From IMG/VR virus record IMGVR_UViG_2909303794_000008: DNA of 38,381 bases; one strand, 5' to 3'. The DNA is from a virus (Duplodnaviria; Heunggongvirae; Uroviricota; Caudoviricetes). Within the stretch, counting starts at the first letter, position 1. The number at the start of each line of letters is the position of its first letter. The position numbers and the translations under genes are program-made. Below are positions 2,621 through 37,266 of this stretch, piece after piece. Below the pieces are notes generated by a model. It searched no databases, was not told the DNA's origin, and worked only from the letters and a program-made list of their open reading frames with translations.

Positions 2621-2732
2621 AACTGAAGTTGCCCTGAAAATGAAATTTTTTTGCACAACCGCAGAACTTTTCCGCAGGGCATCAGTCTTAATTAGTGCCA
2701 CTGCTTTTCTTTGATGTCCCCATTTTGTGGAG

Positions 2733-2775
2733 CCCATCAACCCCGCCATTTCGGTTCAAGGTTGATGGGTTTTTT
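2733..2775 (+). terminator. rho-independent terminator (probably ybjL, host side of prophage junction)
   Basis: perfect 10-bp stem cccatcaacc(2733-2742)/ggttgatggg(2760-2769) followed by T6 (2770-2775); coordinates anchored on ybjL and ogr stop codons. Confidence 0.55.
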
Positions 2776-2855
2776 GTTGCCTGAAATTTAAGCTGTTTAA
2801 AATCATGATGTTAGAAACACTGTTTTTTAACGATGGCGACAAAATGGCGGCAGCG

Positions 2856-22109: not shown

Positions 22110-23876
22110 ATGAACACCACACTGACACCCGCAGATCTCGATCCCCGTCGGCAGGCCATGCTGCTGTACTTTCAGGGATACCGCGTAGCCCGCATTGCTG
22201 AAATGCTGGGCGAGAAAGTTGCAACCGTTCACAGCTGGAAAAAACGCGACAAGTGGGGTGACTATGGGCCGCTGGATCAGATGCAGCTCACCACCGCCGC
22301 ACGCTACTGCCAGCTCATTATGAAGGAGCACAAAGAAGGGAAAGATTTCAAAGAGATTGACCTGCTGGCGCGCCAGTCGGAGCGCCATGCGCGGATCGGC
22401 AAGTTTAACAATGGCGGCAACGAAGCCGACTTAAACCCTAACGTCGCCAACCGCAACAAAGGCCCGCGCCGTCAGCCGGAAAAGAACGTTTTCACCGATG
22501 AACAGATTGAGAAGCTGGAAGAAATCTTCCATTCCTCCATGTTCAACTACCAGCGCCACTGGTGGGAAGCCGGAAAAACCAACCGCATCCGCAACCTGCT
22601 GAAGTCACGCCAGATCGGCGCGACCTTCTATTTTGCCCGTGAAGCCCTGATTGACGCCCTGCTAACCGGGCGTAACCAGATTTTCCTTTCCGCCAGCAAG
22701 GCTCAGGCCCACGTCTTTAAGCAGTACATCATCGACTTCGCCAAAGAAGTGGAGGTGGAGCTGAAAGGCGATCCGATGGTGCTTCCTAACGGGGCCACGC
22801 TGTACTTCCTCGGCACCAATGCCCGCACGGCCCAGAGTTACCACGGCAACCTGTATCTGGATGAATATTTCTGGATACCGAAATTCCAGGAGCTGCGCAA
22901 AGTGGCTTCCGGTATGGCTATTCACAAAAAATGGCGACAAACCTATTTTTCCACGCCATCCAGCCTGACACACAGTGCTTATCCGTTCTGGTCCGGTGCG
23001 CTGTTCAACCGAGGGCGCAACAAAGCCGATAAGGTGGACATCGACCTGTCCCACAGCAATCTGGCCCCCGGCCTGCTGTGCGCAGACGGACAGTACCGCC
23101 AGATAGTCACTGTGGAAGATGCGGTGCGCGGCGGCTGTAACCTGTTCGACCTCGACCAGTTGCGCATGGAGTACAGCCCGGACGAATACCAGAACCTGCT
23201 GATGTGTGAGTTCGTGGACGATCTCGCGTCTGTGTTCCCACTCAGCGAGCTGCAGGCGTGCATGGTGGACAGTTGGGAAGTCTGGACCGACTTTCATGCA
23301 CTGGCCCTGCGCCCGTTTGGCTGGCGCGAAGTGTGGATCGGGTATGACCCGGCGAAAGGTACGCAGAACGGCGACAGCGCCGGATGCGTGGTGGTGGCGC
23401 CGCCAGCCGTGCCGGGCGGTAAGTTCCGCATTCTTGAGCGTCACCAGTGGCGCGGAATGGACTTCCGCGCCCAGGCTGACGCCATCAAAAAACTGACCGA
23501 ACAGTACAACGTGACCTATATCGGTATCGACTCAACCGGCGTTGGTCACGGGGTTTACGAGAACGTGAAAGCGTTTTTTCCTGCCGTCCGGGAGTTTGTC
23601 TACAACCCCAACGTTAAAAACGCCCTGGTACTCAAGGCCTACGACATTATCAGCCACCGCCGTCTGGAGTTTGACGCCGGACACACCGACATTGCGCAGT
23701 CATTCATGGCAATCCGTCGCGCAACCACCGCCAGTGGCAACCGCCCAACCTATGAAGCCAGCCGCAGCGAAGAAGCCAGCCACGCCGATCTGGCCTGGGC
23801 AACGATGCACGCACTGTTTAACGAACCGCTGCAGGGCGAGTCCGCCAATACCAGCAATATTGTGGAGATTTTTTGA
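22110..23876 (+). CDS. P: terminase large (ATPase) subunit P
   Basis: 588 aa, ATG at 22110; P2 gpP-like. Confidence 0.9.
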   Translation: MNTTLTPADLDPRRQAMLLYFQGYRVARIAEMLGEKVATVHSWKKRDKWGDYGPLDQMQLTTAARYCQLIMKEHKEGKDFKEIDLLARQSERHARIGKFNNGGNEADLNPNVANRNKGPRRQPEKNVFTDEQIEKLEEIFHSSMFNYQRHWWEAGKTNRIRNLLKSRQIGATFYFAREALIDALLTGRNQIFLSASKAQAHVFKQYIIDFAKEVEVELKGDPMVLPNGATLYFLGTNARTAQSYHGNLYLDEYFWIPKFQELRKVASGMAIHKKWRQTYFSTPSSLTHSAYPFWSGALFNRGRNKADKVDIDLSHSNLAPGLLCADGQYRQIVTVEDAVRGGCNLFDLDQLRMEYSPDEYQNLLMCEFVDDLASVFPLSELQACMVDSWEVWTDFHALALRPFGWREVWIGYDPAKGTQNGDSAGCVVVAPPAVPGGKFRILERHQWRGMDFRAQADAIKKLTEQYNVTYIGIDSTGVGHGVYENVKAFFPAVREFVYNPNVKNALVLKAYDIISHRRLEFDAGHTDIAQSFMAIRRATTASGNRPTYEASRSEEASHADLAWATMHALFNEPLQGESANTSNIVEIF

Positions 23877-24901
23877 TGGGAAAGAGTAAGAAAAACCGCA
23901 CTGCGGCGACGAATCAGATCCAGCATAAAAGCCAGACTTCAGCCGAAGCATTCAGCTTCGGTGATCCCGTTCCTGTACTTGACCGCCGCGAACTGCTGGA
24001 CTATGTGCAATGCGTACAGACAGATCGCTGGTATGAGCCGCCAGTGAGTTTCGACGGTCTGGCTCGCACCTTCCGCGCCGCCGTGCATCACAGTTCCCCG
24101 ATTGCAGTAAAGTGCAACATTCTGACCAGTACCTATATCCCTCATCCTCTGCTCAGCCAGCAGGCTTTTTCGCGTTTTGTGCAGGACTATCTGGTATTTG
24201 GCAACGCCTATCTGGAGAAACGCACGAACCGCTTCGGTGAAGTGATCGCCCTTGAACCTGCGCTGGCAAAATACACCCGACGCGGATTAGACCTGGATAC
24301 CTACTGGTTTGTGCAATACGGTATGACAACCCAGCCGTATCAGTTCACGAAAGGCAGCATCTTTCATCTGATGGAACCGGACATCAACCAGGAGATCTAC
24401 GGCCTGCCCGGTTATCTTTCTGCCATTCCGTCAGCCCTGCTCAACGAGTCCGCCACGCTGTTCCGCCGAAAGTATTACATTAACGGCAGTCATGCTGGCT
24501 TCATCATGTACATGACCGATGCTGCGCAGAACCAGGAGGATGTGAACAACCTCCGCAACGCAATGAAAAGCGCCAAAGGTCCAGGCAACTTCCGCAACCT
24601 GTTTATGTACTCACCTAACGGCAAAAAGGATGGTCTTCAGATTATCCCGTTGTCAGAAGTCGCGGCAAAGGATGAATTTCTGAACATCAAGAACGTGAGC
24701 CGGGATGACATGATGGCGGCACACCGCGTGCCTCCACAAATGATGGGTATCATGCCGAATAATGTTGGCGGGTTTGGGGATGTGGAGAAGGCATCCACGG
24801 TTTTTGTACGTAATGAATTAAAGCCTCTTCAACAACGAATTAGAGAGGTGAACAATTGGCTACATGATGACGTAATAAAATTCCAAGATTACTCCTTGTA
24901 A
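23876..24901 (+). CDS. Q: portal protein Q
   Basis: ATG at 23876 overlaps the P stop (TGATG); the track start 23873 is TTG; P2 gpQ-like. Confidence 0.9.
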   Translation: MGKSKKNRTAATNQIQHKSQTSAEAFSFGDPVPVLDRRELLDYVQCVQTDRWYEPPVSFDGLARTFRAAVHHSSPIAVKCNILTSTYIPHPLLSQQAFSRFVQDYLVFGNAYLEKRTNRFGEVIALEPALAKYTRRGLDLDTYWFVQYGMTTQPYQFTKGSIFHLMEPDINQEIYGLPGYLSAIPSALLNESATLFRRKYYINGSHAGFIMYMTDAAQNQEDVNNLRNAMKSAKGPGNFRNLFMYSPNGKKDGLQIIPLSEVAAKDEFLNIKNVSRDDMMAAHRVPPQMMGIMPNNVGGFGDVEKASTVFVRNELKPLQQRIREVNNWLHDDVIKFQDYSL

Positions 24902-24953: not shown

Positions 24954-25271
24954 TTATATACCACATACAAAATTGATCTTAACGCTTTTATCAACAACAA
25001 GCAGAGAAGTGCCAACAGACTTAATAAATCCCAGTTCATACTCTTCTGAATGCGTCATTGTAATAATATGAACAGGAACAAATAAATCAAGCTCCCGCAG
25101 CTTTCGCTTCAATAATAAACCATCGACACAATCACCTATCACAAGCATATCAATATCATTTGCATCGCAAAAACTCTTTAATGCTGACCCAAATACATAT
25201 ACATCCACCATATATAAACTATGATGGATAATAACATCACAGATCGATTCAATCGTATGTTTAAAATTCAC
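24954..25271 (-). CDS. minimal nucleotidyltransferase (Pol-beta superfamily, MNT-like)
   Basis: 105 aa with the GS-X9-DID motif (VYVFGSALKSFCDANDIDMLVIG); GTG start overlapping the upstream TAG stop by 1 nt; AT-rich. Confidence 0.6.
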   Translation of the reverse strand: MNFKHTIESICDVIIHHSLYMVDVYVFGSALKSFCDANDIDMLVIGDCVDGLLLKRKLRELDLFVPVHIITMTHSEEYELGFIKSVGTSLLVVDKSVKINFVCGI

Positions 25272-25930
25272 TACCGTGAAATTCTTCGTAATAAATCACC
25301 CAACTTGTAAAGCTCCACCCCGATACTTTGAGCAGCCTCTTTTGCCTGAGTCGTCAATCGTCCATTAGGATTGGAGGAAAAAACAACATCACAATTGCCA
25401 TGCAACCCTATCGCATCTCTTACAGAACCCGCTGTCATATCATAATCATTCGCAGCGATAATAACTAAGTCCGCCAAGCCACGTCTTTTAAGTCTATATT
25501 TTTTGTTGGTTTCTCGCTCTACAGAGCTTACATGTGAATGTTGATTGAACACTCTATTTATAAACAAATGCTCTTTATCAAGATGCTCAAGCGGATTATT
25601 AGCTCTTAAAGAAGATGCAATATGCCCAAATGAACCCACTCCTATTTTCTTTTGTTCTAGTAATCTCATTGCATCACCAGAGATAAATTCAACACCTCCC
25701 TTGACTGATAGAAAATCAATTTTTTTATTGTCTAGGTATTCATTTATCTCAGGACATGTTATCCGGCCAGTATTGATTGCCCCGATCAAATAGGTGTCAC
25801 CCTGTGTAGTATTAATCACTAAAGTACCATCACCTATCACCTCTATATTTTCGACACATTTATTTTCTTGTAATTTTCCTGCCATCCATGAAATATAGCC
25901 TTCACTCGCATTTATGCTCATTGGATTCAT
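25271..25930 (-). CDS. hypothetical protein, middle gene of three-gene cargo operon
   Basis: 219 aa; ATGA overlap with the upstream gene and 1-nt overlap with the downstream gene; no domain recognised with confidence (weak Rx6H HEPN-like motif RANNPLEH). Confidence 0.5.
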   Translation of the reverse strand: MNPMSINASEGYISWMAGKLQENKCVENIEVIGDGTLVINTTQGDTYLIGAINTGRITCPEINEYLDNKKIDFLSVKGGVEFISGDAMRLLEQKKIGVGSFGHIASSLRANNPLEHLDKEHLFINRVFNQHSHVSSVERETNKKYRLKRRGLADLVIIAANDYDMTAGSVRDAIGLHGNCDVVFSSNPNGRLTTQAKEAAQSIGVELYKLGDLLRRISR

Positions 25931-26622
25931 CCTATAAATAGTTCAGATGCAGCTTCTGGAAACCTACTACCATTAGCATCGGTTAAGCCCAAATGTTTTG
26001 ATTCAAAGTCATCTATATGAACACAAAGCTTTGAAAAAACATTCTTCTCATCTTCACTCATGAGGTGATAGTTTTGTTCAACCAGTCGCTGTACTTTTCT
26101 ATTGTTGGGTAAGATATGAGATTGTACTTTTCTTAACCATACTTCTGCATTTGGATTTTCAGGGTCAACGCTGTTCTCTTGGGTTGGTCCATATGTTACA
26201 AAAATGGTATTGTTTTCTCTGAAGTATTTTTCTAACTCCTGTCTAACAGATTCTCGATTGTCATATGTTTTAACACCAAAGGTTGCATTTATTTTATCAA
26301 TATGGCCGTTTTTCCAAGAACGGATAATTTCATCAGTAAAATGTTCCTCTGCCTTATCAATTGTCGTATGGCAATTAGCACATAGAAGAATAATGTTGTC
26401 AAAATGACCTCTCTGCTCATCAGTTAGATCAGCATTGGTTCTAGGTCCATTATCAATGGCACTAAAAATGTGAGCAAGTTCTCCAATTGTTATATTTTTG
26501 TCGCCAGCATCAACAAACAAAGGTTGCAAACATTGTGGATTTTGGCAAAAGCCACCTGAGCTGGCAAAAAGCCGTCTAACTGTATTAGCGTTTGGAGAAG
26601 CTTTTCCCCTACTGCAAGCCAT
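25927..26622 (-). CDS. HNH endonuclease-domain protein
   Basis: 231 aa; CQNPQC...GELAHI...N...LLCANCH (HNH with zinc-binding cysteines); ATG at 26622 with AAGG SD. Confidence 0.65.
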   Translation of the reverse strand: MACSRGKASPNANTVRRLFASSGGFCQNPQCLQPLFVDAGDKNITIGELAHIFSAIDNGPRTNADLTDEQRGHFDNIILLCANCHTTIDKAEEHFTDEIIRSWKNGHIDKINATFGVKTYDNRESVRQELEKYFRENNTIFVTYGPTQENSVDPENPNAEVWLRKVQSHILPNNRKVQRLVEQNYHLMSEDEKNVFSKLCVHIDDFESKHLGLTDANGSRFPEAASELFIG

Positions 26623-26710
26623 GAACTAACCTTAAAAGTATAGAAATTAGGATGTTAATTTATTACTGAACAACCCTATAAGCAAGCTTGCTAATTGTGG
26701 TGAGCGCGCG

Positions 26711-26729
26711 CTCGTATCCCCGCCACGCC
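26711..26729 (-). other. putative cos (cohesive-end) site
   Basis: minus strand reads GGCGTGGCGGGGATACGAG followed by CGCGCGCTCAC; the first 13 nt match the P2/186 cohesive end as I recall it (GGCG[A/T]GGCGGGGAAAGCA[C/T]); lies in the intergenic gap between the two cargo clusters. Confidence 0.35.
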
Positions 26730-26914
26730 TGCCCGCTTTATGTAGCGGTTTTCATGCAGGCGCATGATCTACGCAAAATCCCACCAGTTCTGGCGTGCCT
26801 TAGCAAAAACGATCCGCAAACGATCATGCGATCTCATGCGGCATAGTCATGCACTTACGGGGGAAGTGAAATCCCGTAACCGAATGACCGCTTGAAAAAC
26901 AAAACTCTCGTTTT

Positions 26915-26949
26915 TATAAAGCACAAAGTCCGCTTTGAGCAAAGCGGAC
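26915..26949 (-). terminator. rho-independent terminator downstream of the KAP NTPase gene
   Basis: stem gtccgcttt(26928-26936)/aaagcggac(26941-26949) followed on the minus strand by TTTGTGCTTTAT. Confidence 0.5.
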
Positions 26950-27014
26950 GTTAATAATTTTACTGACTATCCCTAGTACTTCTAATAATATTGCCTATGT
27001 TAATCAACAAAAAG

Positions 27015-28907
27015 TTAATCAGTTCCCTCAGTAAAGAATTTGATTGCGCTAGTTAGTACATAGTCAATAAAAAACTTTACGTGAAAAACCTGAAAGGAGT
27101 TATTGGCTGCGTTTTGAGTGAAATCTACAGCTATCTCTTTTAGGTTAATCAACCAGTTGTATTCTTCGGTCAGTCTGGTTCTAGCATCCCCATCAGAATA
27201 ACGATTCCGCAAGCTAAATGCCAGTTTCCTCATGAGGACTGGGTCAAGTTTCCTATAGCTTTCAATGAAAACTTCAGGAGGAACCAAGTGTAAAAAAGGC
27301 ACGTTATGAAGATTTAACTGCCTATTATTAGAATGACTCAATTCAGATACAAACGATAAGTTTCCCCTTTGCAACTCATCGCTGAACTGCAACGCAAATT
27401 CCGGAATTGATTCATCAAACCGTTTCTTCTTCGCTATCTCAATATGCTCAATAATGAGTTTGAATTCATCGCTATCCCTGTCAAGAAAACCAAAGCCACG
27501 CCATGCCCTTAATTCGTTATAATGCGTTTGCGCATATTCCTTATGTATATCTTCAGCTCTAAGTCTATTATAATAATTATTTATATTCTGTTTTGTCTCA
27601 TTTATGAGATCATGAACATCATCTGTTGTTAGACCTTCTTTCGCCATGTCCAGCAAAATACTCGCGGTCATCAGGAGTTCACCTAAGGAAGTGATCTTAC
27701 CTGAAAATAGATTATCCTTGGCAATGGCGTACTGCTCATTAAGCATAGTTTCATTAAGTTCTCGATAGTTCCACAAATACTCCCATGCTTGGGCATCGGT
27801 GCTTCTAAAAAATCGCGTAATATCCAACTGAGCGAGAAGTTCACTCGTTACCTTTCCATCACAGATTAGCTCCCTCCAGTACGCACCATCCAGTAACTTC
27901 TCGGTTAATACAGGAGATGAATATTTCTCGACGATCATGTCATACTTAGTTTTGGTACGCTCTTTACCTAAAAACATACCATAATTAACATTGCTGATTG
28001 AATCGAAATCCTCGTAGTTAAGGTTCCCTCCCCGGTACTCTATCGAGAAAATTAACAACTGCTGGAAAAATACCCTCATAAAATCGTCGTTGCTGACATA
28101 TTTATTTCCCAAAAGGGAAATGATGCGTTGTACATCAAGAAAGAACTGCCTCAAGTGTCTTAGATTATTATATTTCGCCGACACATAGATGTCTTCTATG
28201 GCCTGCATATCTTCTTTAAATATATTAGCAACGTGTAAACTGCTAATTACGCCCAAAAAAACATTACAAGCACTATGTAAATCTGACGTTACTTCAAATG
28301 TTTTACCAACAAGCTTTTCTTTTGTTCTCATGTATTCGCTGCTAGATTTCTCGTCATCATTATTTATTCGCTTTTCTCTATTGATTATTTCTTCTTCATT
28401 GGCAACCAAGATCGCTTTGTATCCGTTTACTTCTACAAAGTGGTTTATATATCCAAATAAAATTGGTAAATCTATACCAGCTCTCTCGATATCATCAAAG
28501 ACCAGCACAAAACCATCTGGTTTTCTACTAAAATCGTTAAGATTAATGGTGGGAACATTGGTATTGACATCAACGTCAGATTTATTATCGCCATTGAGAT
28601 CGATCTTGAAAGTAGCCTTAAGCGTATTTTTTAGTACATTTGCACCAAAGATAAGGGCTTTGTTTGATAGGACAGGATGAAGTTGACGATAGAACTCATC
28701 TTCAATCTGCTTAATAGAGTTGACGCCATACAAACTCACTTTTAGAAATTTAAACTCTGAATTCTTCTGCTTATATTCTTCAAGAACTTGTTCAATGAAC
28801 CAAGTTTTACCTGATCCCCAAGCACCTTTAAGCATAATGGCGTATTGAGGTTCAGTTGTAAGGCTAAGGTAATATTCTATATAGTCTTTGATGTACGTAT
28901 TGTTCAT
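27015..28907 (-). CDS. KAP-family P-loop NTPase
   Basis: Walker A GAWGSGKT near the N-terminus and Walker B-like VLVFDDIER about 100 aa later; start set to ATG 28907 (the track start 28958 is TTG); AT-rich. Confidence 0.7.
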   Translation of the reverse strand: MNNTYIKDYIEYYLSLTTEPQYAIMLKGAWGSGKTWFIEQVLEEYKQKNSEFKFLKVSLYGVNSIKQIEDEFYRQLHPVLSNKALIFGANVLKNTLKATFKIDLNGDNKSDVDVNTNVPTINLNDFSRKPDGFVLVFDDIERAGIDLPILFGYINHFVEVNGYKAILVANEEEIINREKRINNDDEKSSSEYMRTKEKLVGKTFEVTSDLHSACNVFLGVISSLHVANIFKEDMQAIEDIYVSAKYNNLRHLRQFFLDVQRIISLLGNKYVSNDDFMRVFFQQLLIFSIEYRGGNLNYEDFDSISNVNYGMFLGKERTKTKYDMIVEKYSSPVLTEKLLDGAYWRELICDGKVTSELLAQLDITRFFRSTDAQAWEYLWNYRELNETMLNEQYAIAKDNLFSGKITSLGELLMTASILLDMAKEGLTTDDVHDLINETKQNINNYYNRLRAEDIHKEYAQTHYNELRAWRGFGFLDRDSDEFKLIIEHIEIAKKKRFDESIPEFALQFSDELQRGNLSFVSELSHSNNRQLNLHNVPFLHLVPPEVFIESYRKLDPVLMRKLAFSLRNRYSDGDARTRLTEEYNWLINLKEIAVDFTQNAANNSFQVFHVKFFIDYVLTSAIKFFTEGTD

Positions 28908-29221
28908 TTTTAGTCCATTTTGATAAAATACATAAACATAGATGGTAAGTAGAGCCAAAGGCCAACTATGGAAAATTCAATCGGTAGTGTACATTGTAAG
29001 GTTATTATTAGTAAATTTTATAGAAATGCCCATAATCTTACAAAATTCAGATTATCCGTTGCGAATTAGTCTGCCATTCGTTAATTAACGAAAGTTAGCA
29101 GAAGAAACGTTTGCATCTTGCACAAAGCAGACGATCATTTATCAAAATGACCTTACACCTTATTTCACTCGTTGCCCAAACTAGCCCCCATCAGAATGAA
29201 TCCTCCTGGGGGCAACGTTTC

Positions 29222-29455
29222 TTAATGCAGCCAGCTGTCGTCTTCCCACACCTTCTGCATAATTTTCATCACTTGTTTTCTTTCTTCGTCCAGTTGCAGT
29301 CCGGTCAGTTCCACACCGTTAGAGCTACCTTTGCGGATACGAATTACCGTTTTGGGATACAGGGGGCGCAGATTGCGGTAAAGCTCGGATTCAAGGGCGT
29401 CCAGTGTAGACTGGCTAATCTTCTGCTCTTTATCGATCATTATTTCAATGCGCAT
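29222..29455 (-). CDS. dinI: DinI-family protein
   Basis: 77 aa starting MRIEIMIDK and ending WEDDSWLH, resembling DinI; GAGGTG SD; the track ORF is longer through an upstream in-frame extension. Confidence 0.7.
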   Translation of the reverse strand: MRIEIMIDKEQKISQSTLDALESELYRNLRPLYPKTVIRIRKGSSNGVELTGLQLDEERKQVMKIMQKVWEDDSWLH

Positions 29456-29465
29456 AAAAGTCACC

Positions 29466-29654
29466 TCAGCTGATGACATCCATTGAGCGGTTGTATTCGT
29501 GGCTTCTGATTTTTGCCATGAGTTCATCAGTCAATTCAGAAACCCACTGCAGAGCCAGCCCCTTCTCTTCATCACTACACTCACTAGCCGCTACAAGCTT
29601 AAGAAAAAAATCAATGCGCTGGAGCTTCAAAGACTCCAAAAAATAGTCCTGCAT
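29466..29654 (-). CDS. small SOS-regulated protein (possible Tum-like antirepressor)
   Basis: 62 aa, ATG at 29654 with GGAGG SD, about 40 bp downstream of a LexA box; function inferred only from context. Confidence 0.4.
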   Translation of the reverse strand: MQDYFLESLKLQRIDFFLKLVAASECSDEEKGLALQWVSELTDELMAKIRSHEYNRSMDVIS

Positions 29655-29807: not shown

Positions 29808-32222
29808 TTAATACAGGTTCCGCCACTTATCATCTTCCTGCAAACGCTGGTTCCAATAGAAGATACGCAGGCCTGCTCCTGACGGAATACTGCCGCCGCG
29901 AAGGAGTAAATCGACCTCTTTCTCGCTGCCATCAAATCCTCTGGATTTCAGTTCATAGACGAGCTGCTGTCGTTGATGGTCTGTAATTCGCTGTTTGTAG
30001 TCTCTACGTCGTTTCGGTTTCACCAGACGTAACCTTGCAGCCAGTTCCCGGCGCTCCTTTTTGTTCATACTGTGCAGGTAATCGTGCAACTCCTTGTCAT
30101 CCATGCGGGTAAAGTCCGTTCTGGGGTCCCCATCAGCTGATTTATCTTTCTCCTGTTGGTTCAAATTTTCAGCAAGGGGACAGTTATTGCCACGAGTCCA
30201 AGGGGCGCAAGCGCCCTGGTCGGCTGCCGCCTCCTGAACATCAACGGCCTTACGAACCATTTTCCACTTCACGGCATGAGTGCAGATCTTGCCCTCTGCA
30301 ATAGGTGACCAGATGCCATAAATACGAATGCCGTGATCGCCATAGGCGGTCGGCTCTTCGTTGATTTCATAAGCGGTTCTGATGAGGTGATATTTGCGGG
30401 GAACCAGTACGCCGCCCTGCTTCATGATGTAGGTGGCAAAACAACCAGCATCAGCAGCAGCCAGGATGGCATCAAGGCGTGGGTTATCCAGTACCGGCGC
30501 ACCTGCTTTTTTGTCCCCCTGTTGCCTTGCCGCCTGACCAGCCAGCAATCGCAGTTCACGGTAAGCCTGACGCCCCGGAATGCCAAAGAAGCGGAATTGC
30601 TGAACACGATGCAGAGACGCCCAGGCATTAACGTATTCAGCATTATCACGCAGGGATTTCCCCGTTTCCTTGCTGATCTCGCCAGCCAGACCACGCCCGT
30701 CAATGTTCTTACTGATGTATTTCGCGATGTAGCTTGTTGGCGTTCCTTTGCGCGGGTTAATCAACTCAGACTTAAAGCGCGGCCCAGTGTTATTGCCCAG
30801 CTCCTCGCGGTCTTCACGGATGGCAAACTTACGCAGTAATGCAGTGATGGCACGGCGGTCTTTTTTGCGCATGAAACACAACAGGTGCCAGTGAACTGTG
30901 CCGTCATGATGCGGCTCAGCCACCCGCACGCCATACCAGCGCAACCCGGCTTTGTGCATCGCCTTACGAAATGCAGCAAACATGCCGACCAGATAATCGC
31001 TGCTTTGTCTTACCGTCGCGTTTGTCCAGGTCGGGTTTGGTCTGCCGTTATTGAGCGTGGAATGGAAACGTGACGGACAGGTGATGGTGTAGAAAACGGC
31101 GCAGTCACCGCGCATTTCCGCGATAAGCTCCAGACCTTTAACACAGGCCATCATCTCATTGCGGCGATGCGCCGGGTTGCTGCTGCTGGCGTTTACCACA
31201 TCCTCCATGTCCAGCGTGTCGCCGTCTTCGTTCACCAGTTCATGAGAACGGAAAAACTCCAGCGACTTACGGCGCTGCTCACGTTTATGCATCACGGCTT
31301 CATAGCTGACATAGGGAGATGCTTTTTTGCTGACCAGGCAGACAGCACGCAACTGCTCTTCCCGCCATTCGCAACGCATCTTCCATAATTTCCGATACCA
31401 CCAGTCGGCGCACAACATACGCGCCAGCGAACCCGGAATGAGTTCATAGGGCACGGGTTTACGGCGGTTTCTTTTCCGACGGAGTTGCTCAAACGCAGGA
31501 GGGATTACATCCAGACGCAGGGTTTCCGCTGCCACCTTTTCCCATGTCTTGCGGATTTCTTCTGGCTTAACGTCATCGGTGGCATACAAATCACCACAAG
31601 CTGCATCAAGGCACATGCTCATATGCGCGGCAACAAGGGTAGACAGGCGCTTCACCTGATCCTGACTCATTTCAGGCAGGATCAGCAGGCCGTCCAGCCC
31701 TTCATGGCTTGCCATAAAGCGAAAAGAAGTGGATAGCTGACTCTCGCGTACATGCTCCAGTCGTTCCAGACATGGCTTAATCGTCTCACGCAAATAGCGG
31801 GAATAAGCCTTTGGCCTGCCCAGGCTGCTGAAGTATTCAATACGTTGCATCAGCGGCTTGCTGATATGGGAAGGCTGGGCGTTGACGTCCGCCAGAATGA
31901 CCATATCCGGATTAAAACGCTGCTGCTCATGCGCCAGCTTTGCCCGACTAATGAGCTTATCCTGCTCGATTTCGCGCTGGACAGGATCACGGGATTCATT
32001 AAAGAAATAACGCTCCCAGACCTGATCACTCAGCGCCTCACGGCGCAGCTGTTCCTGCTCGTTATCGGCAGCGTACAGAGTGATCAGGTTTGAAAGCGCA
32101 GAAACCGGCGCAACTTCCGCCGGGTCCAGATAAGGGTTAATGGCCTTTTTCGGGCTGCTCCATGAGAATGCTGCTGCGACCTCGTTAAAGCCGCTGCAGT
32201 TGTTCATATCAGCATGGCTCAT
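29808..32222 (-). CDS. A: replication initiation endonuclease A (rolling-circle Rep)
   Basis: 804 aa; HWH metal-binding motif and YIAKYISKN tyrosine motif; ATGA overlap with dam. Confidence 0.9.
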
Positions 32223-35589: not shown

Positions 35590-37266
35590 ATGAATTCATT
35601 TTCCATCGTTATATTCTTATTAGCATTTCTCGCCCCCATTCTAGCTGTAATATTATTTAAGCAAAGCAAAAAACATAAAGCGGCTATAGATACCTTGACA
35701 GCTAACAACATAGCCCTTTCCAACCAACTGAAAGAAAATCAAGAAGAATTAGCACAGACTGTACGAGATCTATCAGAGCTTGAAGGACGAGCTGCACCAT
35801 TATGGCAATACGTAGAATTGCACAGCGCAGTGATGGAAGCAGAGAATAAGATAAAAAATGCAGACTCAATAGCCAGGCAAAAAATAGAAGAAGCCCAAAT
35901 AAAGGCTGCTAAGACAGTAAACGAAGCAAATTATCAAGCTCAGATAAAAATAAGCAACGCTAATAGCGAAGCTATAGCAATTACTAAAGACGCTCGCGAT
36001 GCACGCCTGAAAGCTAAAGAACGTCTTGATAATGCCAATAGTAAAGCAAATGAGCTGATCTCAAATGCTAATGACAATGCAGTGAAAATTATTTCCGATG
36101 CAGAAGAAAGAGCAAAAGAGATTGCTGGTTCAGCATATGAAGCTAAAGAGTTTGCAGAAAAATATGAAGCAGTTGCCAAATCAATGAAAAATAAAATTGA
36201 AGGTTATGGTGATGAATGGATCATCCCTAACCGTAGCGTTCTCGATGAATTGGCAGAAAATTATGAGTTTACAGATGCAGGCAAGGAATTACAAAAAGCC
36301 AGGGAGTTAACAAAATCATTAATAAAAACTAATAAAGCTGCTTCGTGTGATTATGTTGAACAAAACAGGCGTAATACTGCTATCAACTTTGTTTTAGATG
36401 CCTTCAATGGAAGAGTTGACAGTATTTTATCAAAAGTCAAACACAACAATTTTGGAAAACTTTCCCAAGAGATAAAAGATGCGTTTCAACTTGTAAATTA
36501 CAATGGTTCTGCCTTTAGGTCCGCAAAAATAAGTGACATCTATCTTCAAGCTCGACTCAACGAGCTAAAATGGGGTGTTGCAGTTAATGAAATTATGCTC
36601 GAAGAAAAAGAAGAGCAAAGAAGGATTAAAGAACAACTTCGTGAAGAGGAAAGAGCTCGTAGGGAGTATGAAAAAGCGATAAAAGAAGCTGAAAAAGAAG
36701 AGAAAGCTATTCAGCAAGCTATAAATAAAGCAACAAAAGAGCTTATGCTTGCAAATGAAGAACAACGCTTAGCTTTAGAGCAAAAAATAGCTGAACTACA
36801 GTTAAAATATGAAGAAGCTGAAGCTAAAAACCAACGAGCTATTTCTATGGCTCAACAAACTAGATCAGGCCACGTTTATATAATTAGTAATATTGGCTCA
36901 TTTGGCGAAGATGTATATAAAATTGGAATGACACGCCGCCTTGAACCACTTGATCGTGTTCGTGAACTCGGTGATGCTAGTGTTCCTTTTTCGTTCGATG
37001 TTCATGCGATGATTTATAGTGATGATGCACCATCATTAGAAAATCATCTGCATAAAGTCTTCAACGAAAAACAGGTCAATAAAATTAACTCACGAAAAGA
37101 GTTTTTCAACGTAAATATTAAAGAAATTAAGTCTGTTATTGAAGATATGAACATCAACGCACAATGGACAATGTTTGCGGAAGCGAAAGAATATAGAGAG
37201 TCACTGGCGATTGAGCAAGAGCGCAAAGCAGCAACTTCCGCCAACGATGAACTGCATGTTGCTTAG
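35590..37266 (+). CDS. membrane-anchored coiled-coil protein with C-terminal T5orf172 (GIY-YIG-like) domain; DUF4041-like architecture
   Basis: 558 aa; N-terminal TM helix, long coiled coils with repeated NANS/KANE motifs, C-terminal GHVYIISN...VYKIGMTRRL...ENHLH...EFF motif; AT-rich; AAAGGA SD 20 bp after the cI stop. Confidence 0.6.
   Translation: MNSFSIVIFLLAFLAPILAVILFKQSKKHKAAIDTLTANNIALSNQLKENQEELAQTVRDLSELEGRAAPLWQYVELHSAVMEAENKIKNADSIARQKIEEAQIKAAKTVNEANYQAQIKISNANSEAIAITKDARDARLKAKERLDNANSKANELISNANDNAVKIISDAEERAKEIAGSAYEAKEFAEKYEAVAKSMKNKIEGYGDEWIIPNRSVLDELAENYEFTDAGKELQKARELTKSLIKTNKAASCDYVEQNRRNTAINFVLDAFNGRVDSILSKVKHNNFGKLSQEIKDAFQLVNYNGSAFRSAKISDIYLQARLNELKWGVAVNEIMLEEKEEQRRIKEQLREEERARREYEKAIKEAEKEEKAIQQAINKATKELMLANEEQRLALEQKIAELQLKYEEAEAKNQRAISMAQQTRSGHVYIISNIGSFGEDVYKIGMTRRLEPLDRVRELGDASVPFSFDVHAMIYSDDAPSLENHLHKVFNEKQVNKINSRKEFFNVNIKEIKSVIEDMNINAQWTMFAEAKEYRESLAIEQERKAATSANDELHVA

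What the first reader, a model, noticed from the sequence alone, without database searches (positions are those of the whole stretch)
27015..28958. Solitary KAP-family P-loop NTPase as cos-proximal cargo
A 630-aa AT-rich protein with Walker A GAWGSGKT and a Walker B-like hhhhDDIER motif occupies the A-to-cos interval where P2 carries old/tin, with its own terminator (26915-26949). KAP NTPases have been predicted to act in biological conflict systems, and this one is a single-gene insert in a phage cargo hotspot, making it a candidate defence or superinfection-exclusion factor.
Basis: partly seen in the sequence, partly recalled or inferred. Interest (0 to 1): 0.65.

Follow-up and report, generated by a model that had tools for sequence, protein, structure and literature searches.

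The report
Prophage-carried KAP NTPase defence candidate
A 186/P2-type prophage of E. coli carries, beside its packaging site, a self-contained single-gene cassette for a soluble KAP-family NTPase that is very probably an anti-phage protein, but the protein and its family are already listed as untested candidates in the published defence catalogues.

Summary
A 630-aa protein (27015-28907, minus strand; GC 37% against 55% for the backbone) matches Pfam KAP_NTPase (E 4e-22). It has Walker A GAWGSGKT, Walker B FVLVFDDIER and no transmembrane helix.

It lies between the DinI-like gene next to replication gene A and the cos site (26711-26729) of a 186-like prophage. A related phage has this slot empty, which bounds a 2.36-kb cassette with its own upstream region and terminator. 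About 2.1-2.2 kb of this cassette recurs at 83% identity in two unrelated prophage types.

The defence reading is well supported but indirect:
- Full-length match to PADLOC candidate PDC-S49 (E 5e-160).
- This exact protein appears in the P2-hotspot table of Rousset et al. 2022.
- Distant homologues sit inside type I restriction-modification operons.
- dN/dS is 0.2-0.3.
- An intact copy survives in a decayed prophage.
- A remote relative from the P4 hotspot ("Reve") and other KAP fusions have been shown to block phages.

The likely mechanism is a STAND-like switch: a variable all-helical C-terminal sensor, a KAP NTPase that oligomerises, and an unresolved effector.

It is a new member of a known kind, of moderate interest. 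Nobody has tested this family.

The parts
27015..28907 (-). CDS of the 630-aa KAP-family NTPase (WP_029365156.1); stop codon 27015-27017
   Evidence: ORF list, PGAP annotation in the 100% identical E. coli 14EC007 genome, Pfam KAP_NTPase, PADLOC PDC-S49, PHROG 4740
28119..28901 (-). KAP-type P-loop NTPase domain, aa 3-263
28803..28826 (-). Walker A GAWGSGKT (aa 28-35)
   Evidence: Motif position. W30, G31, G33 and K34 are invariant in 35 diverse homologues
28524..28673 (-). Conserved insert of about 50 aa without a TM helix, inside the P-loop domain (aa 79-128), at the position where classical KAP NTPases carry TM helices
   Evidence: AF2 pLDDT below 50, yet 54% mean identity among distant members against 49% for the NTPase core and 27% for the C-terminal domain. 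No TM helix
28482..28511 (-). Walker B FVLVFDDIER (aa 133-142)
   Evidence: D138, D139, E141 and R142 are invariant
27018..28112 (-). All-alpha C-terminal domain (aa 266-630), fast-evolving; inferred sensor or effector region
28908..29211 (-). Upstream non-coding region that travels with the gene. It holds a conserved -10-like TAnAAT at 28998..28993 and GGA 7-9 nt before the ATG
   Evidence: Absent from the phage with the empty slot. Conserved in Serratia and Edwardsiella prophages for 113-221 nt upstream of the ATG. The promoter scan itself is not above chance
26918..26949 (-). Intrinsic-terminator-like hairpin plus T-run, 66 nt after the stop codon
   Evidence: The Serratia homology runs through the whole hairpin (to 26927); the Edwardsiella homology stops at 26947, inside its 5' arm
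26856..29211 (.). The whole 2,356-bp cargo cassette, delimited against a phage with an empty slot
   Evidence: blastn against Escherichia phage vB_EcoM-813R9 (L018): homology stops at 26855 and resumes at 29212, with only 68 bp between these points in that phage
26704..26855 (.). Conserved cos block (cohesive-end 19-mer at 26711-26729). It separates the two independently varying cargo slots
   Evidence: Homology with other E. coli prophages that carry different Q-side cargo starts at 26700-26704

Best explanation
The gene is an autonomous, horizontally mobile single-gene anti-phage module (PADLOC candidate family PDC-S49). A 186-like prophage carries it in the cos-proximal P2 hotspot, where it would protect the lysogen from other phages. 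The proposed working is a STAND-like switch. (1) The divergent all-helical C-terminal domain recognises a phage-derived cue. (2) Recognition permits NTP binding or hydrolysis and oligomerisation of the N-terminal KAP NTPase, which resembles ring- and filament-forming ORC/Cdc6, TnsC, RdrA and NLR ATPases. (3) The assembled oligomer stops phage development. The output is unresolved. No enzyme-like effector domain is present, so it must come from the helical C-terminal region, from the conserved insert in the P-loop domain, or from the NTPase itself. Shown here: domain identity, cassette autonomy and mobility, hotspot position, purifying selection, and embedding of homologues in restriction-modification operons. 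Inferred: defence function (about 0.7), the sensor-switch logic (about 0.4) and any effector mode.
Against: No member of PDC-S49 has been tested, and PDCs are explicitly unvalidated. Rousset et al. did not list a KAP system among those they cloned (no 'KAP' in Table S2). The relation to Reve is remote: 14% identity, and BLAST aligns only the Walker A stretch. EF_KAP has two N-terminal TM helices that this protein lacks. There is no recognisable effector domain, so the output step is a guess. Some homologues sit among ordinary metabolic genes with no mobile-element or defence marker (Burkholderia, Flavobacterium). Expression from the prophage is not shown, and the promoter-like sites are no more frequent than chance.
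Confidence: 0.6

Rival explanations
1. PifA-like abortive infection at the membrane. On sensing a phage protein, the soluble KAP protein associates with the inner membrane through the conserved amphipathic insert (aa 79-128), which replaces the TM hairpin of classical KAP NTPases. This causes leakage or depolarisation that aborts infection. This is a specific effector mode within the defence reading.
For: PifA is a KAP-family member without TM helices that excludes T7 through membrane depolarisation and nucleotide leakage (as summarised in the Tmn preprint). The insert is as conserved as the catalytic core but is modelled with pLDDT below 50, which fits an element that folds only in a complex or at a membrane. 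It contains a Lys-rich amphipathic stretch.
Against: The PADLOC PifA profile matches only the Walker A stretch (E 0.0028, aa 19-52). No segment reaches TM-like hydrophobicity. EF_KAP, the best-studied KAP defence protein, was reported not to act by abortive infection.
Confidence: 0.15
2. Not a defence gene. It would be an accessory ATPase serving the phage itself, for example an ORC/Cdc6- or TnsC-like DNA-binding loader acting on replication or packaging near cos, or a lysogeny or addiction function that stabilises the prophage.
For: The best structural matches are replication-initiator and transposition-target ATPases that bind DNA. The gene sits next to cos and downstream of the replication genes. 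About a quarter of P2 hotspots carry non-defence cargo such as partition systems.
Against: Most related phages lack it, and one has the slot empty. The same cassette works its way into unrelated prophage types at different positions. Homologues occur outside phages, inside R-M operons and next to a serine recombinase. It is retained intact where the phage structural genes have decayed. There is no winged-helix or other DNA-binding domain after the ATPase.
Confidence: 0.12
3. Part of a larger, multi-gene system that spans cos. The KAP NTPase would regulate the HNH nuclease, the 219-aa protein and the small nucleotidyltransferase encoded at 24954-26622.
For: NTPase plus nuclease is a common defence architecture. 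The two cargo blocks lie only 400 bp apart, on the same strand, and both are AT-rich.
Against: The KAP gene is found with four different Q-side cargoes in E. coli. The HNH trio occurs without the KAP gene in other hotspots. A terminator and the conserved cos block separate them. No partner family recurs next to 80 distant homologues, with at most 5 of 149 neighbours in any family.
Confidence: 0.05
4. A decaying or selfish passenger gene with no current function.
For: Low GC and sporadic distribution, in 0.85% of complete E. coli genomes.
Against: dN/dS is 0.2-0.3 in both domains and the length is identical, 630 codons, in seven copies at 76-99.8% amino-acid identity. Catalytic residues are invariant over 35 homologues from many phyla. 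There are 3,221 clusters at 50% identity with E at or below 1e-30, and the top 150 are nearly all full length.
Confidence: 0.03

Closest known systems
PADLOC phage defence candidate PDC-S49 (Payne et al. 2024, guilt-by-embedding; untested)
   Same: Full-length profile match (aa 2-623 to profile 5-614 of 624, E 5.4e-160). Single-gene architecture. Homologues found here embedded in type I R-M operons, the criterion by which PDCs were defined.
   Different: Nothing distinguishes it; this protein is a member. PDC-S49 has no demonstrated function or mechanism, so membership gives no mechanistic knowledge.
Reve, single-gene KAP P-loop system from the P4 satellite hotspot (NAR 2026, PMC13586616; plasmid pFD425)
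   Same: Same ecological niche (cos-adjacent hotspot of the P2/P4 pair) and a single gene. N-terminal KAP-like P-loop without TM helices, followed by about 350 aa of helical C-terminus with no known domain. ORC ATPase is the top structural hit for both. hhalign probability 96% over 501 columns. Reve's only PADLOC hit is PDC-S49 (E 2.5e-11).
   Different: 14% identity. BLAST aligns only 49 residues around Walker A. 586 aa against 630 aa. Reve's PDC-S49 hit covers only the NTPase half. Reve is experimentally validated against Drexlerviridae; this protein is not. The identification of pFD425/UnknownSys7 as Reve rests on the order of entries in the supplement.
EF_KAP and related KAP-NTPase-effector fusions (serine-recombinase-guided discovery, bioRxiv 10.1101/2025.10.07.681051)
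   Same: A KAP NTPase domain followed by about 320 aa with no known domain or structural match. Single protein. Defence needs Walker B. A Pseudomonas homologue of the present family sits near a serine recombinase.
   Different: EF_KAP has two N-terminal TM helices and comes from Firmicutes. The present protein is predicted to be soluble.
PifA of the F plasmid (T7 exclusion)
   Same: A KAP-family NTPase lacking TM helices, carried by a mobile element, acting as a single-protein exclusion factor.
   Different: Only a Walker-A-level match to the PADLOC PifA profile (E 0.0028). PifA is about 720 aa with a different C-terminal region.
P2 old and tin, the classical occupants of this slot
   Same: Same genomic slot between gene A and cos. 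Single-gene exclusion factors carried by a P2-family prophage.
   Different: Unrelated proteins: Old is an ABC-ATPase-Toprim nuclease, and Tin targets T-even ssDNA-binding protein (established knowledge). No PADLOC Old or Tin hit.
RADAR RdrA, QatA and Avs/NLR-like STAND ATPases
   Different: No RdrB, QatBCD or N-terminal effector domain. No PADLOC hit to those families. The neighbours are unrelated.

Membership tests
KAP family P-loop NTPases (Pfam PF07693; Aravind et al. 2004) | Profile match above the Pfam gathering score | tested here: met
   79.3 bits against a cut-off of 20, E 3.8e-22, covering profile positions 2-290 of 293
KAP family P-loop NTPases (Pfam PF07693; Aravind et al. 2004) | Walker A GxxGxGK[ST] and Walker B hhhhDD-x-[DE]R | tested here: met
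   GAWGSGKT at aa 28-35 and FVLVFDDIER at aa 133-142. The key residues are invariant in 35 homologues
KAP family P-loop NTPases (Pfam PF07693; Aravind et al. 2004) | Insert with two or four transmembrane helices associated with the P-loop domain | tested here: not met
   An insert is present at aa 79-128, but the highest 19-residue Kyte-Doolittle mean anywhere is 1.47 and the insert is polar or amphipathic. TM helices are not universal in the family: PifA lacks them. This makes the protein a soluble KAP variant rather than excluding it.
PADLOC PDC-S49 | Full-length match to the PDC-S49 HMMs, as a single gene | tested here: met
   PDLC05031 E 5.4e-160 (aa 2-623), PDLC05029 E 2.1e-152, PDLC05030 E 2.6e-89. 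Solitary context. PADLOC's own per-model thresholds could not be consulted.
PADLOC PDC-S49 | Members occur embedded within BREX, DISARM or type I R-M systems | tested here: met
   Among 149 immediate neighbours of 80 homologous loci, HsdS occurs 5 times, HSDR_N 5 and N6_Mtase 3. L060 reads hsdM-hsdS-KAP-GmrSD-hsdR. In L057 the gene lies between an Eco57I/MmeI-type methylase and an SNF2+PLD protein.
P2-family cos-proximal defence hotspot cargo (Rousset et al. 2022) | Located between gpA and gpQ next to cos, and variable between otherwise related phages | tested here: met
   A at 29808-32222, cos at 26711-26729, Q at 23873-24901. Flanks are shared with 60 phage records but none holds the gene. 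Empty slot in L018. The exact accession is listed in their Table S5A.
Validated anti-phage defence system | Reduced phage plating or lysis on expression, abolished by catalytic mutants | not testable with these tools
   No experiment on this family was found in the searched literature. PDCs are described as unvalidated.
Reve (P4 hotspot KAP system) | Recognisable sequence homology over the whole protein | tested here: inconclusive
   hhalign probability 96%, E 4.4e-9 over 501 columns, but 14% identity. The A1 profile scores 27.5 bits through the Walker A stretch only, and BLAST aligns 49 aa.
PifA | Match to the PifA profile beyond the P-loop | tested here: not met
   E 0.0028, aa 19-52 only
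Multi-gene KAP/STAND systems (RADAR RdrAB, QatABCD, Avs) | Cognate partner genes or a fused N-terminal effector | tested here: not met
   No PADLOC hits to these families. The protein starts directly with the NTPase. The neighbours are DinI-like and cos.

The most novel reading that the evidence does not exclude
PDC-S49 proteins would be a mechanistically distinct class of single-protein immune sensor with no separate effector domain. The variable helical C-terminus senses the phage. The output is produced by the NTPase module itself. That module holds a strongly conserved 50-residue insert without a TM helix, sitting where classical KAP NTPases carry transmembrane hairpins. This insert would be a latent membrane-insertion or ring-closing element, deployed only on NTP-driven oligomerisation. 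The result would be leakage, ATP drain, or clamping of phage DNA in an ORC/TnsC-like manner.
Probability: 0.2. Interest if true: 0.65.

Novelty: new member of a known kind. Interest (0 to 1): 0.35.

Why it matters
If confirmed, this would add a large family to the experimentally grounded KAP-NTPase defence proteins. The family has at least 3,221 clusters at 50% identity and occurs in proteobacteria, cyanobacteria, Bacteroidota and other phyla. These proteins were only shown to work in 2025-2026, and their trigger and effector are unknown. The E. coli copy is soluble, is a single gene, comes with its native regulatory region, and lives in a genetically tractable prophage. That makes it a convenient model for asking how a KAP NTPase without an enzymatic effector domain stops a phage.

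Tried and rejected
- Sequence search of the family profile against all PDB chains gave nothing meaningful (best E 0.99).
- Foldseek against the PDB gave no hit with E at or below 1e-3.
- The afdb50 library was unavailable.
- A literature search for 'PDC-S49', the protein accessions or PHROG 4740 returned no paper.
- KAP mentions in a phage gene-essentiality paper were KAPA polymerase.
- The Gifsy protein GiPD474 is a ParA-type ATPase and is unrelated.
- DefensePredictor supplements were not held.
- Exact-word search for this gene's DNA in the NAR/bioRxiv 2026 synthetic constructs found nothing, so Reve is not this gene.
- Promoter consensus scanning was no better than shuffled sequence.
- No flanking direct repeats were found that would suggest transposition of the cassette.
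- No Rfam family lies in the cassette.
- The longer TTG start (647 aa) was rejected. It has no Shine-Dalgarno sequence, it is not used by PGAP, and the 17 extra residues are absent from all homologues.

Full report
**What is there.** The window is an E. coli chromosome segment holding a 186-like (P2-family) prophage, 100% identical over the 2.2 kb compared to strain 14EC007.
- On the minus strand, 27015-28907 encodes a 630-aa protein annotated by PGAP as "P-loop NTPase fold protein" (WP_029365156.1).
The ATG at 28907 is the start used by PGAP and shared by all homologues.
- The protein matches Pfam KAP_NTPase well above threshold (79 bits against 20, E 3.8e-22, aa 3-263).
- Walker A GAWGSGKT is at aa 28-35 and Walker B FVLVFDDIER at aa 133-142.
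- The gene is AT-rich: GC 0.369 against 0.552 for the structural genes.
- A hairpin plus T-run follows at 26949..26918.
- No 19-residue window reaches transmembrane hydrophobicity (maximum 1.47), so this is a soluble KAP protein.

**Position.** The order on the map is portal Q (23873-24901, +), a three-gene AT-rich block (24954-26622, -), cos, the KAP gene, a DinI-like gene, a 62-aa ORF, then replication gene A (29808-32222, -).
- The cos 19-mer is at 26711-26729. Its reverse complement, GGCGTGGCGGGGATACGAG, can be compared with the P2/P4 core GGCGAGGCGGGGAAAGCAC seen in the P4 constructs.
- This is the gpA-gpQ interval that Rousset et al. 2022 defined as the P2 defence hotspot, where P2 itself has old and tin.

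**A self-contained, mobile cassette.**
- Sixty phage records share the flanks but none has the gene.
- In Escherichia phage vB_EcoM-813R9, homology stops at window 26855 and resumes at 29212, with 68 bp between. This delimits a 2,356-bp insert.
- A Klebsiella relative has a different small gene in the slot.
- In other E. coli genomes the KAP gene keeps its place next to DinI while the block on the other side of cos changes: DprA, a RES NAD+ phosphorylase, a 223-aa hypothetical protein, or the HNH trio seen here. The break in homology falls at 26700-26704, so cos separates two independently varying slots.
- About 2.1-2.2 kb of the cassette is 83% identical in two unrelated prophages. It comprises 113-221 nt of upstream region, the gene, and 68-88 nt of downstream sequence that takes in the whole terminator hairpin in Serratia but stops inside its 5' arm in Edwardsiella. 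One copy lies beside the integrase of a lambdoid prophage at icd in Serratia liquefaciens. The other lies among early genes of a Rac-like prophage in Edwardsiella tarda.
- The shared upstream region keeps a TAnAAT element at 28998..28993 and GGA 7-9 nt before the ATG. Consensus promoter scanning is no better than chance.
- No flanking direct repeats were found.

**Selection and distribution.**
- Forty-six of 5,426 complete E. coli genomes carry the gene, each with one chromosomal copy.
- Seven copies at 76-99.8% amino-acid identity all have exactly 630 codons. dN/dS is 0.2-0.3 overall: 0.16-0.22 in the NTPase half and 0.20-0.41 in the C-terminal half.
- An 89%-identical copy is intact in a decayed prophage in which the portal, scaffold and gpD genes are fragments.
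- The family is large and of uniform architecture. There are 8,344 cluster representatives at E at or below 1e-3 and 3,221 at or below 1e-30. Nearly all of the best 150 are full-length proteins of about 580-730 aa.
- Members are found in many phyla.

**Structure.**
- AlphaFold2 with a 35-sequence alignment gives mean pLDDT 82.
- Residues 79-128 are inserted between Walker A and Walker B, where classical KAP proteins carry transmembrane helices. They are modelled with pLDDT below 50, yet they are as conserved among distant members (54%) as the catalytic core (49%).
- A few positions there are invariant: E290, W375, R569, Y570 and E582.

**Evidence for a defence role.**
1. There is a full-length match to PADLOC candidate PDC-S49 (E 5.4e-160). 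PDCs were nominated because members are embedded inside BREX, DISARM or type I R-M systems, and they remain untested.
2. I reproduced that association. Among 149 immediate neighbours of 80 distant homologues, no family recurs in more than five. The most frequent are type I R-M subunits, followed by other defence candidates, ParE toxins and integrases.
3. In Paraglaciecola the order is hsdM-hsdS-KAP-GmrSD-hsdR. In a Nostocaceae genome the gene lies between an Eco57I/MmeI-type methylase and an SNF2+PLD protein.
4. Neighbours are separated by median gaps of 216 and 298 bp. No downstream gene is tightly coupled.
5. The exact accession appears as "KAP_NTPase" in the P2 hotspot table of Rousset et al., with different partners. 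It is not among the systems they cloned.
6. The same prophage also carries PD-Lambda-1, a validated system, between CI and int.

**Experimental precedent.**
- A 2025 preprint showed that KAP NTPases fused to uncharacterised C-terminal regions protect E. faecalis. Protection depended on Walker B and showed no abortive-infection behaviour.
- A 2026 study of P2 and P4 hotspots validated "Reve", a single-gene KAP P-loop protein from a P4 hotspot. I recovered its sequence from the deposited constructs.
- Reve is 586 aa with the same layout. BLAST aligns only the Walker A region. hhalign aligns 501 columns at 96% probability and 14% identity. Its only PADLOC hit is PDC-S49, over the NTPase half.
- The construct in the corresponding position of the series (pFD425) cuts plating of all seven Drexlerviridae tested to between 2.5e-2 and 2.5e-6, and does not affect lambda.
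- Reve is therefore a remote relative and the closest validated analogue. It is not an orthologue.

**Mechanism.** The most economical reading is a STAND-like switch.
- The fast-evolving helical C-terminus acts as sensor.
- The KAP NTPase acts as an NTP-dependent oligomeriser.
- The output arises from the assembled complex.
- Only the domain identities and evolutionary rates are shown; sensing, oligomerisation and output are inferred.
- There is no nuclease, protease, TIR, SIR2 or pore-like domain. The effector must therefore be the helical region, the conserved insert (a PifA-like membrane effect is one option) or the NTPase itself.

Rivals considered, all less likely:
- A phage-internal ATPase for replication or packaging. 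Against this: sporadic presence, mobility between phage types, occurrence in R-M operons, and retention in a dead prophage.
- A two-block system with the HNH trio. Against this: independent assortment of the two blocks.
- A functionless passenger. Against this: purifying selection.

**Novelty and score.** The observation and interpretation are sound, but the ground is already mapped. The protein is listed in a published hotspot table. The family is a named PADLOC candidate. Single-gene KAP defence proteins have recently been validated, including one from the sister hotspot in P4. What remains open is experimental confirmation for this particular, very widespread soluble family, and above all the mechanism of KAP-type defence. 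I rate it a new member of a known kind, interest 0.35.

Noticed in passing
window 24954-26622 (-): A second AT-rich cargo block on the Q side of cos, with three genes. The first is a 231-aa protein with an N-terminal HNH domain (PADLOC PDC-M68A E 2e-29; it also resembles CBASS/SAVED-HNH effector N-termini). The second is a 219-aa protein with no hit. The third is a 105-aa minimal Pol-beta-type nucleotidyltransferase (weak, sub-threshold). The block is probably an independent candidate defence system. In other E. coli it is replaced by DprA, a RES NAD+ phosphorylase or a hypothetical protein.
   Followed up: partly
window 35590-37266 (+): [quoted passage not shown] It matches PADLOC PD-Lambda-1 (E 4e-120), a system validated by functional selection. 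The prophage therefore carries at least three cargo loci.
   Followed up: partly
window 2700-2778 (+): RybB sRNA (Rfam RF00110, 105 bits) shows that the left end of the window is host chromosome. The prophage sits beside rybB/ybjL, the same site as the degraded remnant seen in L011 and L013.
   Followed up: no
L011 8001-9893 and L013 (E. coli metagenome and run assemblies): An 89%-identical KAP variant and a RES-domain gene remain intact in a 186-like prophage remnant. The portal, scaffold (gpO) and gpD genes there are reduced to fragments next to ogr and ybjL. Cargo has outlived the phage.
   Followed up: partly
window 28524-28673 (-), aa 79-128: The insert inside the P-loop domain is modelled with pLDDT 30-47 but is as conserved as the catalytic core across phyla (motif LHPVLSSKG..AGK.LKG.LK.TLKIDLD.DGK.DG......P.I.L). 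No explanation so far accounts for it.
   Followed up: partly
L060 4148-14193 (Paraglaciecola sp.) and L057 3613-12629 (Nostocaceae MAG): Distant homologues are embedded in defence operons. One reads hsdM-hsdS-KAP-GmrSD-hsdR. The other lies between an Eco57I/MmeI-type methyltransferase and an SNF2+PLD protein.
   Followed up: yes
L065 5896-6987 and L064 6007-6978: Twelve of 73 distant homologues have a same-strand upstream ORF less than 60 bp away. Two were sampled: one is a trypsin-like peptidase and the other a RhuM/Fic protein, so the partners are not consistent. The other ten were not examined.
   Followed up: partly
window 29222-29527 (-) and 29466-29654 (-): A DinI-like gene and a 62-aa ORF lie between gene A and the cargo slot. 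They belong to the conserved backbone, being present in phages that lack the KAP gene. They occupy the position where phage 186 has its SOS-responsive tum region.
   Followed up: no
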